Origin: the human T2T-CHM13v2.0 reference genome, Homo sapiens
Length of the DNA stretch: 64,000 bases
Assembly (NCBI RefSeq): GCF_009914755.1
Contig: NC_060925.1
Strand: one strand, 5' to 3'
The notes beneath the pieces are model-generated. The model worked only from the letters and a program-made list of their open reading frames with translations. It was not told the origin of the DNA and ran no database searches. The position numbers and the translations under genes are program-made. Below, one piece after another: positions 18,230 through 60,989 of this stretch (position 1 is the stretch's first letter; each line of letters starts with the position of its first letter).

Positions 18230-18775
18230 GTCTCTTTGTACTTTGACTCCTGCCCATCTATTTTCTACTTGGCAGCCAGGAAGATTCTGTGAGAATTCAA
18301 GTCGGACCCTGCCCCTCCGTGGACATCCCTCCAATGGCTCTCCGTCAAGCTAATGTCCTTCCTCTTGCTCTTGAAAGCCTCTCATGATCAGCCTTCCAGA
18401 AAACAGCCTCAATTCAACCCATCATTTGCTCCCCCAGGGCTTCTGCACCTGTTCTTCCTGCATTAAATGCTCTTTGAGTCTGTGTGAGTCATTCCTCTTC
18501 ACTTCCTTTGACATATATGAAATGTTTATATTTTCTGCCTTTTACTGGAAAACTTCACCCCCACGCCTACACCCCTTCTATTTCCCTTCTTTACTTTCTT
18601 TTTTTCTTTGTCTCTAGTTCTACTTACTTTCCAGCTTATGCTATTTATGACTGTCTATTTTTTCCTATACTGCAATGTAAGCTCCAGGAGAGCAATGAGA
18701 TTGTCTGAAATATCAGCACCTGGAGCACTGATTGTATTTTAGGAATTCGATAAATACTTGCAGAATAAATGAGGT
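18230..18775 (+). mobile_element. L2 fragment
   Basis: 'ccctccaatggctc...tgcaatgtaagctccaggagagca...ataaatacttgcagaataaatga'. Confidence 0.65.
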
Positions 18776-20904: not shown

Positions 20905-21215
20905 TATTTTATATATAGTTTTTATATATGTATATACATATACTATATATAGTATATATAGTATATATATATATATACTATATATAGTATATATAGTATA
21001 TATATATATATACTATATATAGTATATATAGTATATATATATATACTATATATAGTATATATACTATATAATAAATATATATTTATATATATATATATAA
21101 TATATATATTTATATATACATATACATATATACATAGACTATATATAGTATATACATATATGTATATTATATATAAAATATATATTTATATATAATATAT
21201 ATTTATATACATAAA
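20905..21215. repeat. TA-rich tandem repeat, core period about 33-35 bp
   Basis: Unit ctatatatagtatatatagtatatatatatatata recurs with C at 20943, 20978, 21013 and 21046. Confidence 0.9.
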
Positions 21216-26891: not shown

Positions 26892-28478
26892 GTATCTTTC
26901 CTAAGACATAATGTACTATTAACAAACATTAATAATTATACCATTTACATCTTACCAGTTACTAATTTTCCCAACTTTATTTTTATCTTCTTTTCAATGA
27001 CAATGAGTGCTATCAACGTATGTATACTTATTTTATTTTACTCAGATACTTTAATAAACTTATGAAAAATATTTCTGCACTAAGTAACACAGTGAATAAA
27101 ATTCATGGCTGAAGTCCTCACTTCTCCATTCATTCATTTACTTACTAACCCAAGAAATTGTATCTATTGTAAATGAGGCATTATACTGGGTGTTAGGAAA
27201 ATAAGCAAGAACTAATTAGGGGTATAGTTAGTCTATTTGAGTGTGGAGTCAATCTTCACTCACAATGTAATGTTAAGATAACTATTCTCAATTAAACAAA
27301 TATCTGTTTGATAGAAGTTGAACAATAGACCTCATTAGTAGCAAATATTGTGTATTTATAGGGAGTTTGGGACATGTGAAGCAAATAGCAAAATACTAAT
27401 TTTGGAAGCTCTTCTTTGCTGCTGCGGCTTCAAAATATTAGCCTTAATGCTTAAATCATATAAAATTATTGAATTACAGTACCCAGAGAATCACTAAATT
27501 ATATCAAAGTAATTAATAACTATGGAAGGATGGTCACAAATTATTTCAGAGATTAAAATATACTCTGAATTTTTACATCTCTAAATAAAATTATTTATAT
27601 ATCACGATTTTTGTTAGTCAATCATACAAATACTTAGTAATATTTATCAGCAGAAAATTTTTCTCTAGGTCTAATTTAGCATTTTTACTTTAAAGTGCAT
27701 ATTTATATACAATGCTTCAGAATAGAAACAACATGAGCTGTTGAAGATTGAGTAATTCACTAGAGATTTTGGTAATAGTAATCATATTTAAAATGGTGAT
27801 TATAGAAAACTTCTTACATTTATCAGTTTATTAGTAAATATAAGGCACACTATAAGCATTTTACATATACAAGGAGTCTTTCATAAATTTTCATTAAAAA
27901 TTTATGTTTTGAAAAAAACTATGCATAAATTTAAAATTTTTTCTGCACCAAAACAAGCTCATGTTAAGTTGTTACACATGTCTGAACAAGATCTAGTTTA
28001 AGGCATTAAGAAGGATAAGAAATCACTTTGAAAAGAATTCCTAACAGAACAACCTGAATTATGCTAAAATTGAAGCAAGAACAAATATCAAATTTATAGT
28101 GAAGCTTGGATGGAAGAATGGTTAAATCATTGTCGCTTAAAAAAATAGCTTATGAGGACAATGCCCCGAAGAAATCAGTGGTTTTCAAATGGATAATTCG
28201 TTTTAAGAATATAAGAGATGACGTTGAAGATGAAGCCCACAGTGGCAGACCATCCACATCAGTTTGCAAGGAAAAAAAAGTAATCTTGTTTGTGCCCTAA
28301 TTGAAGGAGACAGACAATTAACCGCAGAAACAACAGCCAACATCGTGGACTTCTCAGCTGGCTCAGCTTAGACAATTCTAACTGAAAAATTAAAGACAGG
28401 CAAACGTTCCACTTGATGGGTGCCAAAACTATTGCACCCGCGTCAGCTGCAGACAAAAGCAGAGCTTTCAATGGAAAT

Positions 28479-29308
28479 TATTTTTTTTTTATTGTACTTT
28501 AAGTTCTAGGATACATGTGCACAACGTGCAGGTTTGTTACATATGTATACATGCGCCATGTTGCTGTGCTGCACCCATTAACTCGTCATTTACATTAGGT
28601 ATATCTCCTAATGCTATCCCTCCCCGCTCCCCCCACCCCATGACAGGCCCCAGTGTGTGATGTTCCCCTTCCTGTATCCAAGTGTTCTCATTGTTCAATT
28701 CCCACCTATGAGTGAGAACATGCGGTGTTTGGTTTTTTGTCCTTGCGATAGTTTGCTGAGAATGATGGTTTCCAGCTTCATCCATGTCCCTACAAAGGAC
28801 ATGAACTCATCCTTTATTGTGGCTGCATAGTATTCCATGGTGTATATGTGCCACATTTTCTTAATCCAGTCTATCATTGATGGACATTTGGGTTGGTTCC
28901 AAGTCTTTGCTATTGTGAATAGTGCCACAATAAACATACATGTGTATATGTCTTTATAGCAGCATGATTTATAATCCTTTGGGTATACACCCAGTAATGG
29001 GATGGCTGGGTCAAATGGTATTTCTAGTTCTAGATCCTTGAGGAATCACCACACTGTCTTCCATAATGGTTGAACTAATTTACAGGAACAGTGTAAAAGT
29101 GTTCCTGTTTCTCCACATCCTCTCCAGCACCTGTTGTTTCCTGACTTTTTAATGATCGCCATTCTAACTGGTGTGAGACGGTATCTCATTGTGGTTTTGA
29201 TTTGCAGTTCTCTGATGGCCAGTGATGATGAGATACCATCTCACACCAGTTAGAATGGCGATCATTAAAATGTCAGGAAACAACAGGTGCTGGAGAGGAT
29301 GTGGAGAA
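28479..29308 (-). mobile_element. L1PA (PA3-5-like) 3' fragment with a fold-back inverted duplication at its 5' end
   Basis: Poly-T, L1 3'UTR and ORF2 C-terminus (ORF 28695-28937 'MFIVALFTIAKTWNQPKCP'); 29228-29308 is the inverse of 29109-29189. Confidence 0.95.
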
Positions 29309-29583
29309 CTGGAAAATTTTTAAAGTGAGATCAAGATCCTGAAGCATTTATTTGCAAAATTATAACAGGAAATAGAACATGGCTTTGCCAGCACAATCTT
29401 GAAGATAAAGCACCATCAGCACAATGGCTACCAAGAAGTAGAAGTGGTCTAGTCAAAGCAAAAGCAGACTGGTCAAGAGGAAAAATCACAGCAACAGTGT
29501 TTGGGGAGGCTCAAGGCATTCTTCTTCTTGACTCTGTGGCGGGCCAAAGAATGGTGACATCCACTTATTATGAAAGTGTTCGG

Positions 29584-34854: not shown

Positions 34855-36690
34855 AATATTAAATTAATATTAATATAATATAATTAATTATAATATAATA
34901 TATTATATTAATATGTAATATAATATATTATATTATGTTAATATGTAATATAATATAGTATATTATGTTAATATGAAATATAATATAGTATATTATGTTA
35001 ATATGAAATATAATATATAATAACAATATCAATATAATTATAATACAATTTAATAATATTAATATAATATCATTATAGCAATTATACAATGATTATAATA
35101 TAATTATCAATGTATTAATTATTACTATATTATTAATAATATTATTAATATGTCAATTATTACTATATTGTTAATATAATTATTATATAATATAATATAA
35201 TTATATCACTATTATTATATTATAGTATTAATATAATAGTGTATAACATTAATATAATATAGTATTAATATAATAGCGTATAACATTAATATAACATAGT
35301 ATTAATATAATAGCGTATAACATTAATATAACATAGTATTAATATAATAGCGTATAACATTAATATAACATAGTATTAATATAATAGCGTATAACATTAA
35401 TATAACATAGTATTAATATAATAGCGTATAACATTAATATAACATAGTATTAATATAATAGCGTATAACATTAATATAACATAGTATTAATATAATAGCG
35501 TATAACATTAATATAACATATTATTAATATAATAGCGTATAACAATAATATAACATAGTATTAATATAATAGCGTATAACATTAATATAACATAGTATTA
35601 ATATAATAGCGTATAACATTAATATAACATAGTATTAATATAATAGCGTATAACATTAATATAACATAGTATTAATATAATAGCGTATAACATTAATATA
35701 ACATAGTATTAATATAATAGCGTATAACATTAATATAACATAGTATTAATATAATAGCGTATAACATTAATATAACATAGTATTAATATAATAGCGTATA
35801 ACATTAATATAACATAGTATTAATATAATAGCGTATAACATTAATATAACATAGTATTAATATAATAGCGTATAACATTAATATAACATAGTATTAATAT
35901 AATAGCGTATAACATTAATATAACATAGTATTAATATAATAGCGTATAACATTAATATAACATAGTATTAATATAATAGCGTATAACATTAATATAACAT
36001 AGTATTAATATAATAGCGTATAACATTAATATAATATAGTATTAATATAATAGCGTATAACATTAATATAATATAGTATTAATATAATAGCGTATAACAT
36101 TAATATAATATAGTATTAATATAATAGCGTATAACATTAATATAATATAGTATTAATATAATAGTGTATATTAATATAATATAGTATTAATATAATAGTA
36201 TATAATATTAATATAATATAATATCAATATAATAGTATATAATATTAATATAATATAATATCAATATAATAGTATATAATATTAATATAATATAATATCA
36301 ATACAATAGTATATATTAATATAATATAATATCAATACAATAGTATATATTAATATAATATAATATCAATACAATAGTATATAATATTAATATAATATAT
36401 CAATATAATAGTATATAATATAATATAATATATCAATATAATAGTATATAATATAATATAATATATCAATATAATAGTATATAATATAATATAATATATC
36501 AATATAATAGTATATAATATTAATATATTAATATAATAGTATATAATATTAATGTAATATAATATTAACATAATGTATATAATAATATAATAGTATATAA
36601 TACTAATATAATATAATATTACTATTATAGTATATTCTAACTTACATTACTATATAATACAATTAATTGTGATATAATTAATATTACTAA
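34855..36690. repeat. About 1.8-kb AT-rich tandem block containing a 37-bp VNTR (35224-36185, about 26 copies)
   Basis: Unit agtattaatataatagcgtataacattaatataacat; unit starts at 35224 and 36149 are 25x37 apart; degenerate AT repeats on both sides. Confidence 0.97.
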
Positions 36691-58478: not shown

Positions 58479-58959
58479 TGTTAGCTTGCAAAGATGGCCA
58501 CAATTTCTTATCTCTCCCTGTATCTGTATTTTTGCCAGACTATTCCGTAGTTCTTCTAAAGGGATCAAGTCTATTTCCTTACCTTTTAAATATGGACAGG
58601 TTTTGTGGCTTTCTTTAGTTAATATACTCGGTGGAACTGATGATGTGTAGTTCTGACTTAAGACATCTATGGGATGTTTCTGCTTCCTCTGTGGCTCTCT
58701 TGCAGGCTACTTCTGGCATGTCCTTGTGGTAATGGGAGATTTGCAAGAAAGCAGTCCAAGGCTTTGATCAGCCATCTGCCATCCAGCCTTCAAATCTGTA
58801 AGCCAGATCAACAAGGAAGATTCACATAGCCAACTGTCAGCTGACTCAACAGTGTGCCCAATACACACTGCTTGTTAAATGCCACGAGGGTTTGGTTTAG
58901 TTTCTTAAAAGGAAATGTTTTTTCCTTTTAACTGTATCAGTCAAAAGACAACTGATACA
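58479..58959 (+). mobile_element. MLT1H-like LTR, degraded
   Basis: 'ttgcaaagatggccacaatttc...agtctatttccttacc...ttgttaaatgccacgagggtttgg...caactgataca'. Confidence 0.75.
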
Positions 58960-59033
58960 GACTCCAAAACTGTGTGCTAACTCATGATGGCATGTTAAAA
59001 CTGGAATGTGTCCAGCTATATAAAAAATTTTTT

Positions 59034-59327
59034 GGCTGGGCGCAGTGGTTCACATCTGTAATCTCAGCACTTTGGGAGACTGAGGCAGGAGGATTCCTTG
59101 AACTCAGGAATTCGAGACTACCCTAGGCAACAAGGGGAATCTCCGTCTCTACAAAAAATGCCAAAAAATATTAGCTGGGTATGGTGGTGCATGCCTCTAG
59201 ACCCAGCTGCTTGGGAAACTGAGGTAGGAGGATCACTTGAGCCCACGAGGTTGAGGCTGTTGTGAACTGAGATCACACCACTGCACTCCCAGCCTAGGTG
59301 GCAGAGTGAGACCCCGTCTCAAAAAAT
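59034..59327 (+). mobile_element. AluJ
   Basis: 'gaggatcacttgagcccacgaggttgaggctg' J-type right arm. Confidence 0.92.
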
Positions 59328-59640
59328 TTAAATTTTTTTTAAAAAATTATGATTATGTGTGGAGGGTTAATACGTTATTTCATTTATTTTCCAACTTTTA
59401 ATTGTGATTAAAAAATGACACCTACAGAAAGTTACAAGCATAGAAGAATATATATATATATATATAATATATATATCCCTCATTTAGATGTGCAAATGTT
59501 AACATTTCACCACACTGATTTCTTTTTGTATTCATCTGTAGGATTGTTTTCTGATGAATCAATTGAAAGTAGATTAAAGATAGCATAATCTTTCATTATT
59601 AAATTTTGTCTAGCCATGGTAAATGACTACTAGTCACTCA

Positions 59641-59858
59641 CTTATTGTAAGACACAGCTTCCATTTAGCAGGACTCCATCCATGGAAGTTGTTTGAAAGG
59701 CCGATGCATATTGGATATGGCCAATGTCCTTGTGGTAATGGGAGAGGTGCAACACACTGGGAGAGGCCAATGCATTGGCCATATCCAATATGCACTGGCC
59801 TTTCAAAGGGCTTCCATGGATGCAGTCCTGCTAAATTGAAGCTGTGTCTTACAAGAAG
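59641..59858. repeat. Long inverted repeat: 86-bp arms, 46-nt loop
   Basis: 59641-59726 vs reverse complement of 59773-59858: 78/86 identical, no gaps (aligned by hand). Confidence 0.97.
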
Positions 59859-60989
59859 TTTCATATAAGACATCCTTAAGAATCATGTTTATGAGTAAAT
59901 TGAAATTTAACATAAAAAATAAATTACAAATACATATGTAAATATGAGACACCAGTTTTTTTTCCTACTTATAGGAAAAAAATTTTAACTAGATACATTA
60001 TATCTGAAAAACATTTATTAGAACTTCACAACAATTAGCTTTGACAATGAACCTTAACACTTTCATTTGCCTCAACAGATTTGGAAATGAGGTTATGGTA
60101 AAATATTATACTTACTTTATAGTGAGCATCTCATTGCTCTCAGAAGAACTAGAGAGTTAATTCTGCTGTTAAGTAATAATGTATGTAATTTTTTTTCTTT
60201 CAATAACTTTTTGTGTTCTTCTAAAATACAAAATCACGCTGTGGAAGTAGATGAATACGCTGATCTTTGTTTTTATTATTTTTTCTCTGTTATATATAAG
60301 AAAATTTCTCCTCTGATAATAAATGGATATATATATATTATTTTTTCATTTATGAATTAGGTCTTTCTTGTTTGCTGAAAGAGTTTTATCTAAACATCAT
60401 TGTCACCTGTGCTAACTTGAAGTGTTGGGGATAAAAATTGCTTTCTTTCTTTTTATTTCAATCACCAGAATGTGTAGAATTAGCATTTTGTAAACTTGTG
60501 AGCAAGGCATCAACAAAACCAAGCCCAAACTTCCTGGATTGGACCTCGGTATTTTTCCCATGAAAATTAATTCTTAAAGAAGGTATCACTTAGAGAAATT
60601 ATCTGCACATAAGAACCACATAATCTCGCAAAGACAAAAAGCTTTCAAGTTCCTAGACACCACCCAAAATCAAATGAAACAAAGTTTCATGAATTAAGGT
60701 CCAGGAACTTGAATTTATCAATAGTTCTTTCCATAACTGTGGCATGTTCTTCCTTTTCTTGTAAAAGGACTTTGCTTGCTGAGTGATCAACCTATCCATC
60801 TCTTCTTTATCTTCCAAAAGTGTACAGGTAATATAAAGAGAAGTTATAAACCAAAAATTCAATAACACTAGTCTTATATTTATCTCTGTATTTAACTTTA
60901 TCATAATTCTTTATTTTTTCATATGGCTTCAAATTGCTATCTAGTGTTTTTTTGTTTGTTTGTTTTCATTTCTTCCTAAAGGACTTCCT

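What the first reader, a model, noticed from the sequence alone, without database searches (positions are those of the whole stretch)
59641..59858. Long hairpin with ungapped 86-bp arms, not recognisable as a known repeat; candidate structured RNA or small-RNA precursor
Seen: 59641-59726 pairs with 59773-59858 with 8 mismatches and no indels around a 46-nt loop. The sequence is high-complexity and more GC-rich than its surroundings. As + strand RNA, 3 of the 8 mismatches become G-U wobbles, against 1 on the - strand, a weak hint of a + strand fold. A mini-hairpin (tgacta-c-tagtca, 59624-59636) lies just 5'. The cassette appears to interrupt an old L1M 3'UTR remnant (about 59390-59605, resuming near 59860). 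Inference: a pri-miRNA or hairpin-siRNA precursor, an ADAR substrate, an unrecognised MITE, or a neutral fold-back scar.
Basis: partly seen in the sequence, partly recalled or inferred. Interest (0 to 1): 0.8.

Follow-up and report, generated by a model that had tools for sequence, protein, structure and literature searches.

The report
Single-copy fold-back inverted repeat scar
A real, very stable 220-base hairpin-forming inverted repeat in a human gene desert is a one-off local inverted duplication whose loop carries a repair patch copied from 1 kb away, most likely a neutral scar of DNA replication or repair and not an RNA gene or a transposon.

Summary
The hairpin is real. Arms 59640-59726 and 59773-59859 are 87 nt each, pair at 79 of 87 positions with no indels, and enclose a 46-nt spacer. 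It folds far better than shuffles on both strands (z -16.4 and -17.5).

It is not a repeat family. In the whole CHM13 assembly it matches only itself. The same search recovers 76-80% identical copies of a control repeat. It has no target-site duplication and no Rfam family at gathering score.

New here: 29 nt spanning the left-arm/spacer boundary (59724-59752) match 58718-58746, about 1 kb upstream on the same strand, at 27 of 29 positions with 22 exact. That 22-mer occurs perfectly only at these two places in the genome. The spacer also ends in an 8-nt copy of the left arm's inner end and holds an internal 9-nt direct repeat.

Best reading: an inverted duplication made by template switching or fold-back repair, with a centre carrying microhomology-joined templated filler. 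It is probably tens of millions of years old and neutral. No evidence for or against transcription could be obtained. The claimed L1M flanks could not be verified. The kind is ordinary, so interest is low to moderate.

The parts
59640..59726 (.). Left arm of the inverted repeat (87 nt)
   Evidence: I1; mismatch table; matches only itself and the right arm in the genome
59727..59772 (.). 46-nt asymmetric spacer (loop), read here as a composite repair patch
   Evidence: Parts: templated block, 5 unexplained bases (59753-59757), a second copy of a 9-nt direct repeat, and an 8-nt duplication of the arm end
59724..59752 (+). 29-nt block (last 3 nt of the left arm plus the first 26 nt of the spacer) that copies 58718-58746
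   Evidence: 27 of 29 identical, 22 exact, E 1e-6 against 63 kb; nhmmer E 0.0008; exact 22-mer list; perfect 22-mer found only at these 2 places genome-wide
58718..58746 (+). Upstream partner of the spacer block, inferred to be the template (donor)
   Evidence: The direction of copying is inferred and only weakly supported (versus 47)
59739..59747 (+). First copy of the 9-nt direct repeat TGGGAGAGG inside the spacer
   Evidence: read (spacer sequence)
59758..59766 (+). Second copy of TGGGAGAGG; its last two G overlap the 8-nt duplication (2-nt junction microhomology)
   Evidence: read
59765..59772 (+). 8-nt direct duplicate (GGCCAATG) of the inner end of the left arm (59719-59726). With the start of the right arm it forms a perfect 16-nt palindrome, 59765-59780
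   Evidence: 16-nt self-complementary match 59765-59780
59773..59859 (.). Right arm of the inverted repeat (87 nt)
   Evidence: (91% over 87 nt to the left arm)
59866..59872 (+). 7-nt direct repeat (TAAGACA) of 59648-59654. It is the only flank-related direct repeat and is offset from the repeat ends. Either a template-switch return point or chance
   Evidence: scan for direct repeats of 4-12 nt around both ends
59624..59636 (.).
   Evidence: 109 such stems in 64 kb

Best explanation
This is a single-copy inverted duplication: one arm is a reverse-complement copy of the other.

Origin (inferred). It was made in the germline of a primate ancestor by a DNA-level error, either polymerase template switching at a stalled fork or fold-back synthesis at a break. 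It was not made by transposition.

The centre (inferred). It carries a repair patch. A 3' end finishing in the inner end of the left arm (...GGCCAATG) paired through the 3-nt microhomology ATG with a site about 1 kb upstream. It was extended for 26 nt, dissociated, picked up 5 bases of unknown origin and a re-copied 9-mer, and was joined through a 2-nt (GG) microhomology to the other side. That left an 8-nt duplication of the centre. This could have been part of one multi-switch event, or a later 'centre-break' revision of an originally spacerless palindrome.

Consequence. Either way the result is a 46-nt asymmetric spacer, a length at which inverted repeats stop provoking breakage in mammalian cells. 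That would explain why this one survived.

Shown: the repeat, its uniqueness in the genome, the copied 29-nt block, the 8-nt and 9-nt direct repeats, and the absence of a target-site duplication.

Inferred: the mechanism, the direction of copying, the order of events, the age (arms differ at 9.2%, JC 0.098, roughly 20-50 million years at the usual primate rates I recall), and neutrality.
For: (1) Uniqueness.
- Whole-genome DNA searches with the hairpin return only the locus itself and its own reverse strand, with 1 first-look candidate.
- A 28-nt outer-arm pattern with up to 3 mismatches hits only the two arms, control 0.
- Two 22-nt arm seeds with up to 3 mismatches gave 50 and 14 non-self hits. 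I checked 18 and 14 of these loci and none extends beyond 33 nt.
- Sensitivity control: the same search with a 301-nt LTR-like repeat gave 6075 candidates and 39 non-self matches at 76-80% identity among the 40 scored.

(2) Arms that are 91% alike with no indels imply a copy made recently relative to any old repeat family. A family that young would have been detected.

(3) Templated spacer.
- 27 of 29 identity to 58718-58746, E 1e-6.
- The chance expectation for a 22-nt exact match of the spacer in this window is 2e-7.
- The 22-mer is perfect only at these two sites in 3.1 Gb.
- The homology does not continue on either side: local alignment scores are reached by 23 of 500 and 392 of 500 shuffles. 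So it is a short patch, not a segmental duplication.

(4) Junction microhomologies and the 8-nt and 9-nt direct repeats are read directly from the sequence.

(5) Literature.
- Template switching creates complete hairpin stems in one event; more than 50,000 events are inferred on the human lineage, and multi-switch cases exist (PMC10710096, passages).
- Templated insertions flanked by microhomology are the MMBIR signature (PMC8421209, passages).
- A 42-bp spacer abolished inverted-repeat-induced recombination in human cells. The same paper reports a study in which a 52-bp spacer abolished replication stalling, and it names centre-break palindrome revision (PMC3300023, passages).

(6) A second hairpin of similar size in the same window arose from an L1 rearrangement. 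Such structures are therefore not rare by-products.
Against: - The ancestral state was not seen. No other primate genome was available, so which arm is the original, and whether either arm is native to the site, is unknown.
- Both arms are much more GC-rich (0.46) than the flanks (0.26). That fits an insertion of foreign DNA at least as well as a duplication of local sequence.
- An 87-nt copied tract is long for a template-switch mutation. The example described in PMC10710096 is 28 bases, and its miRNA-like class has 30-55-base stems.
- No clear microhomology was found at the outer junctions. The only direct repeat is a 7-mer offset from the ends.
- The direction upstream-to-spacer is weakly supported. 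Two loci picked by the 22-mer align to the upstream region beyond the seed (E 3.4e-5 and 6.3e-4). With the 22-mer removed, the flanks alone give no hit.
- The MMBIR templates described in PMC8421209 lie within 100 bp and are inverted. Here the template is about 1 kb away and direct.
- Neutrality is assumed from the lack of annotation, not measured.
Confidence: 0.55

Rival explanations
1. A foreign palindromic element inserted here. It could be a solo or very low-copy MITE-like transposon, or captured filler DNA of unknown origin whose source has been lost or has diverged beyond recognition.
For: The whole unit is a terminal-to-terminal inverted repeat. Its GC content (0.46) is discontinuous with AT-rich flanks (0.26), as expected of an insertion.
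Against: No other copy exists in 3.1 Gb at a sensitivity that finds 76-80% identical repeats. No target-site duplication of 4-12 nt lies at the ends. Arms 91% alike would make it younger than any copy-less family could plausibly be. Sub-threshold Rfam hits to MITE-like miRNA models owe their score to stem pairing.
Confidence: 0.17
2. A transcribed long hairpin RNA: a young small-RNA (miRNA or endo-siRNA) precursor or an ADAR-edited double-stranded RNA. It would have been born from the inverted duplication and now be under selection.
For: Extremely stable fold on both strands. Template-switch hairpins are documented raw material for new miRNAs (PMC10710096). There are slightly more G.U wobbles on the + strand (3 versus 1).
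Against: No Rfam family reaches its gathering score: MIR2630 87 bits against 144, mir-3927 43 against 90. The hub's table shows no annotated gene or MIR locus over it, and none within 100 kb on one side. PMC10710096 reports that a promoter is the limiting factor and that few such hairpins become annotated miRNA loci. An 87-bp stem is outside the 30-55-base range used there. The 3-versus-1 wobble split of 4 transition mismatches is not significant. Both strands fold equally well, as any DNA palindrome does.
Confidence: 0.06
3. A by-product of retrotransposition: an inversion with overlap (twin-priming-like) created when an old L1 or another RNA was reverse transcribed into this site. The second hairpin in the window, at 29109-29308, appears to be of this kind.
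For: The same window holds an 81-nt-arm, 98% complementary hairpin with a 38-nt spacer, inside an L1 ORF2 C-terminal remnant.
Against: The arms have no detectable L1 or other repeat relatives. An inversion formed when an ancient L1M inserted should by now have arms far more diverged than 9%. No poly(A) or poly(T) tract adjoins the cassette. The spacer patch comes from local genomic DNA, not from an RNA.
Confidence: 0.05

Closest known systems
Template-switch mutations (TSMs) that create hairpins in one step (Mönttinen et al. 2023, PMC10710096; Mönttinen and Löytynoja 2022, PMC8794818, search listing only)
   Same: An inverted copy lies next to its source. The stem is near-perfect and arose without indels. 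The locus is single copy. Multi-switch complex events are described.
   Different: The arms (87 nt) are longer than the cases described there. The locus is intergenic with no promoter known. The parent-child reconstruction that defines a TSM could not be done here. The spacer carries an extra patch templated from 1 kb away.
Centre-break palindrome revision and microhomology-mediated templated insertions (MMBIR or polymerase theta end joining; PMC3300023, PMC8421209; Cunningham et al. 2003 is cited in PMC3300023 but not held)
   Same: An asymmetric centre interrupts an otherwise symmetric repeat. The filler is copied from nearby DNA. There are 2-3 nt junction microhomologies, a short duplication at the break, and signs of repeated abortive copying.
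   Different: These were described in transgenes, cell lines, cancers and disease CNVs. Here it is an old, fixed germline event inferred from one sequence. The template is direct and about 1 kb away, not inverted and within 100 bp.
Palindromic MITEs that became miRNA genes, e.g. Made1 and hsa-mir-548 (PMC1784062, title and start of abstract seen)
   Same: A near-perfect palindromic unit of 80-230 bp that would fold as a long hairpin if transcribed.
   Different: MITEs are multi-copy and have target-site duplications. This unit is single copy with none.
L1 inversion hairpin in the same window (29109-29189 / 29228-29308)
   Same: Similar geometry: about 81-87-nt arms and a 38-46-nt spacer.
   Different: That one is made of L1 ORF2 sequence and lies within a stretch the hub's table lists as masked repeat (28455-29369). 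The finding's arms have no repeat relatives.

Membership tests
MITE (non-autonomous DNA transposon) | Terminal inverted repeats | tested here: met
   The whole unit is an inverted repeat, 87-nt arms, 91%
MITE (non-autonomous DNA transposon) | Target-site duplication directly flanking the ends (TA, TTAA, 8 bp and so on) | tested here: not met
   The scan for direct repeats of 4-12 nt around both ends found only a 7-mer, lying inside the left arm and 6 nt beyond the right arm
MITE (non-autonomous DNA transposon) | Multiple dispersed copies of similar age | tested here: not met
   Only self matches in 3.1 Gb. The control repeat gave 6075 candidates and hits at 76-80% identity
Canonical pri-miRNA / annotated miRNA family | Match to a curated miRNA family at its gathering score | tested here: not met
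   Best: MIR2630 87 bits against 144; mir-3927 43.4 against 90; none at threshold in 59000-60500
Canonical pri-miRNA / annotated miRNA family | Stem of miRNA-like length (30-55 bases as used in PMC10710096) | tested here: not met
   The stem is 87 bp; criterion read
Canonical pri-miRNA / annotated miRNA family | Transcription, and small RNAs of about 22 nt with defined ends | not testable with these tools
   No expression data held. The hub's gene table lists no transcript over the site
Template-switch / fold-back inverted duplication | Inverted copy adjacent to its source, unique in the genome | tested here: met
Template-switch / fold-back inverted duplication | Ancestral sequence with one arm only, converted in one step | not testable with these tools
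   No other primate genome is held. The genome tools cover prokaryotes and this one assembly
Templated-insertion repair junction (MMBIR or alternative end joining) | Inserted bases copied from a nearby template | tested here: met
   27 of 29 to 58718-58746, 22 exact, unique pair in the genome
Templated-insertion repair junction (MMBIR or alternative end joining) | Microhomology at the junctions | tested here: met
   3 nt (ATG) are shared by the arm end and the upstream site. 2 nt (GG) are shared at the join to the 8-nt duplication. These are short, so weak on their own
L1M 3'UTR as the interrupted host sequence | Flanks align to L1M copies or consensus and are contiguous across the cassette | tested here: inconclusive
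   No relatives of the flanks found. No ORF2 remnant upstream. No repeat library available

The most novel reading that the evidence does not exclude
The hairpin is a natural, fixed germline example of a long palindrome that was 'defused' by centre-break repair with a templated patch. In addition, it is transcribed in some tissue as a primate-specific long double-stranded RNA that yields small RNAs or is ADAR-edited. That would make it a de novo RNA locus born in a gene desert by template switching.
Probability: 0.05. Interest if true: 0.6.

Novelty: new member of a known kind. Interest (0 to 1): 0.22.

Why it matters
As a locus it probably does nothing. Its value is as a clean, readable fossil: a unique 87-bp-arm inverted repeat whose spacer still shows where its filler was copied from and which microhomologies were used.

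If primate alignments confirm the order of events, it would be a documented germline case of two processes. One is template switching that makes a long hairpin. The other is palindrome stabilisation by a templated central insertion, which is mostly known from transgenes, yeast and tumours.

For the scan, it shows that a high-complexity long hairpin in human DNA need not be a MITE or an RNA gene.

Tried and rejected
- Rfam on 59000-60500 and on 59620-59880, both strands. All matches were sub-threshold. MIR2630 and mir-3927 score through stem pairing with little sequence identity, so I rejected them as family membership.
- Seed patterns from the arms, followed by BLAST and nhmmer of the hairpin against the loci fetched (18 loci, 14). 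The best was 33 nt at 88% in L075. One-mismatch seeds on C10 and C4 do not extend. Rejected as relatives.
- An RNA covariance model. In the window it finds only the hairpin itself.
- Extended homology between the upstream region and the hairpin beyond the 29-nt block, which I suspected by eye. It is not better than shuffles, so I rejected it.
- 'The upstream copy sits in an old repeat family.' L057 and L063 align across the seed, but the flanks alone give nothing. I kept this only as weak support. Many 3-mismatch hits of the 22-mer share one recurring variant of it, which probably belongs to a dispersed repeat (an LTR, by my recall). The four such loci fetched (L056, L059-L061) gave no nhmmer hit to the upstream region, and only a chance-level one (E 0.44) to the hairpin.
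- L1M test. A gapped motif taken from the left flank gave 6 hits against 4 for the control, with no homology in the 5 other loci. A right-flank 22-mer gave 33 against 51 for the control. Pfam on upstream frames gave nothing relevant.
- The mini-hairpin as a meaningful element: at chance frequency.
- Pfam on the L1 remnant at 28455-29228 gave no family; the PDB sequence search identified it instead.
Cunningham et al. 2003 is not held.

Full report
THE OBSERVATION. The inverted repeat is real and slightly longer than reported. Arms 59640-59726 and 59773-59859 are 87 nt each, pair at 79 of 87 positions with no indels, and are separated by 46 nt. As RNA, 59620-59880 folds at -151.5 kcal/mol on the + strand (z -16.42) and -149.1 on the - strand (z -17.52). 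None of 200 shuffles reaches either value. The two strands fold equally well, which is what any DNA palindrome does and says nothing about an RNA. The unit has 0.459 GC against 0.26 on each side.

The eight mismatches are 4 transitions and 4 transversions. They fall into five clusters if adjacent ones are merged. They give 3 G.U on + and 1 on -, a split of four transition-type mismatches that has no statistical weight. The small hairpin at 59624-59636 exists, but 109 stems of that kind occur in the window. In the whole window, 94 inverted-repeat pairs of 30 nt or more lie within 1 kb of each other. This one ranks fifth by the tool's order and, unlike the AT-rich ones, is of high complexity.

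NOT A REPEAT FAMILY. The assembly that holds the window (3.1 Gb, 24 contigs) can be searched.
- With 59600-59900 and with 59640-59772 as queries, the only matches are the locus itself and its own opposite arm. The first look found a single candidate.
- The same tool failed to find relatives of the flanks, so I ran a positive control. A 301-nt piece of a dispersed LTR-like repeat (L059) gave 6075 first-look candidates. Among the 40 scored, 39 were non-self matches at 76-80% identity. The hairpin is therefore single copy down to roughly that identity.
- Three seed patterns with up to 3 mismatches probed further. The 28-nt outer-arm seed hits only the two arms.
- The two 22-nt seeds give 50 and 14 non-self hits (controls 10 and 1). 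Among the 18 and 14 loci fetched, none aligns to the hairpin beyond 33 nt.
- A covariance model of the hairpin finds nothing else in the window. It could not be run on the genome.
- Rfam gives no family at gathering score. The best, a plant MITE-like miRNA model (87 bits against 144) and mir-3927 (43 against 90), score through pairing.

Arms that are 91% alike could belong to a transposon family only if that family were young. A young family would have been found.

THE SPACER IS A PATCH. nhmmer of the hairpin against the rest of the window and the loci then held (48 sequences, 403,818 nt) gave one hit, 58716-58770 (E 0.0008). BLAST defines it as 59724-59752 against 58718-58746, same strand: 27 of 29 identical, 22 in an unbroken run, E 1e-6 (exact-match list). 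The chance expectation of such a 22-mer match for the spacer in this window is about 2e-7. Genome-wide, the perfect 22-mer occurs only at these two places. The similarity stops on both sides. Local alignments of the sequences beyond the block are matched by 23 of 500 (3' side) and 392 of 500 (5' side) shuffles. So this is a short copied tract, not a segmental duplication.

The block begins with the last three bases of the left arm (ATG), which both sites share. After the block come five bases I cannot place (59753-59757). Next is a second copy of a 9-mer that already occurs inside the block (59739-59747 and 59758-59766). Last is an 8-nt copy (59765-59772) of the inner end of the left arm (59719-59726). 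Its first two G overlap the 9-mer. Together with the start of the right arm it forms a perfect 16-nt palindrome. In other words, if 38 nt of filler and an 8-nt duplication are removed, the two arms abut as a spacerless palindrome.

WHICH COPY IS THE TEMPLATE? I infer upstream to spacer. The spacer copy is bounded by junctions, and palindrome centres are where breaks occur. The two adjacent differences (GG in the spacer, TT upstream) may be later change upstream. Two loci fetched through the 22-mer pattern (L057, L063) align to the upstream region across and beyond the seed (E 3.4e-5 and 6.3e-4). They resemble the spacer version just after the seed. But these loci were chosen by the seed, and the upstream flanks without it give no hit. 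This support is weak.

FLANKS. No target-site duplication of 4-12 nt lies at the ends. The only direct repeat is a 7-mer at 59648-59654 (inside the left arm) and 59866-59872 (6 nt beyond the right arm). It may mark a switch-back point or be chance. The flanks have no detectable relatives, no ORF2 remnant lies upstream, and there is no repeat library here. An Alu occupies about 59035-59330 (SRP-model hits), between the upstream template and the hairpin.

MECHANISM. The best-supported account is a DNA-level copying error. One arm was synthesised from the other by a template switch or fold-back. The centre was sealed, in the same multi-switch event or in a later centre-break revision, by microhomology-primed synthesis on a site 1 kb upstream, then abortive re-copying and a 2-nt microhomology join.

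The literature read supports each element:
- Template switching makes whole hairpin stems in single events and is common on the human lineage. More than 50,000 events are inferred in genic regions, and multi-switch cases are noted (PMC10710096, passages).
- Templated insertions flanked by microhomology are the signature of MMBIR-type repair (PMC8421209, passages).
- A 42-bp central spacer abolished inverted-repeat-induced recombination in human cells. The same paper reports a study in which a 52-bp spacer abolished replication stalling, and it names centre-break palindrome revision as an outcome (PMC3300023, passages).

A 46-nt spacer therefore plausibly explains the survival of this repeat.

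AGE. The arms differ at 9.2% (JC 0.098). With primate neutral rates that I recall (about 1-2.2e-9 per site per year) this is roughly 20-50 million years, less if adjacent mismatches are single events. The 29-nt block differs at 2 adjacent sites, compatible with the same age.

WEAKNESSES OF THIS ACCOUNT:
- No outgroup was seen.
- The GC jump at both ends suits a foreign insertion at least as well.
- The copied tract is long for a template-switch mutation.
- The outer junctions show no clear microhomology.
- The template is farther away, and in direct orientation, compared with the cases in PMC8421209.

RNA READINGS. Nothing supports them beyond the fold itself. The hub's table shows no transcript over the site. 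The only lncRNA in the window ends at 18749, and no gene lies within 100 kb beyond the window. PMC10710096 reports that a promoter is the limiting step and that only a small fraction of such hairpins become annotated miRNA loci. Expression, editing and conservation data were not available, so this reading is unlikely but not excluded.

COMPARISON AND VERDICT. It works like a template-switch or fold-back inverted duplication with a templated repair junction, and it meets the features of those kinds that could be tested. It is not a MITE (two of three defining features not met) and not a member of any curated miRNA family. It is a new, well-preserved example of a known kind of mutational scar. 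Interest is low to moderate, mainly as a readable record of palindrome formation and stabilisation in the germline.

LIMITS.
- There was no repeat library, no other primate genome and no expression or editing data.
- Supplements of the cited papers were not opened.
- PMC8794818 and PMC1784062 were seen only in search listings.
- Cunningham et al. 2003 is known to me only through its citation in PMC3300023.

Noticed in passing
window 29109-29189 / 29228-29308: A second long hairpin: 81-nt arms, 98% complementary, 38-nt spacer. It lies at the end of an L1 remnant whose minus-strand reading matches human L1 ORF2 protein residues 1097-1275 (E 1e-104). The right arm is the same ORF2 segment in the opposite orientation. 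It looks like an L1 inversion with overlap (twin-priming-like, my recall) or a later fold-back.
   Followed up: partly
window 58718-58746 and loci L057, L063: The upstream partner of the spacer block may lie in an old, unnamed dispersed repeat. Two loci share about 40-60 nt around the motif, but the support vanishes without the seed. Many other genomic 3-mismatch hits of the 22-mer share one recurring variant, probably part of a dispersed LTR-type repeat by my recall.
   Followed up: partly
window 59035-59330: One Alu element (two sub-threshold hits to the SRP RNA model, 59035-59151 and 59174-59322, plus Alu-derived miRNA models) sits between the upstream template and the hairpin. A (TA)n tract at about 59440-59476 is the only part of the flanks with genomic matches.
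   Followed up: no
window 20910-21182, 34871-35015, 36101-36577: AT-rich, low-complexity palindromic tracts with 43-124-nt arms and spacers of 0 to about 300 nt, most only a few nt. They resemble palindromic AT-rich repeats in composition. Not examined.
   Followed up: no
G000:C4:114147971-114147992 (L075) and G000:C10:80318896-80318917 (L007): Each holds a one-mismatch match to a 22-nt seed from the arms. Each is individually unlikely by chance (about 0.02-0.05 expected under a uniform model, my estimate). The similarity extends to at most 33 nt. Unexplained; probably chance.
   Followed up: partly
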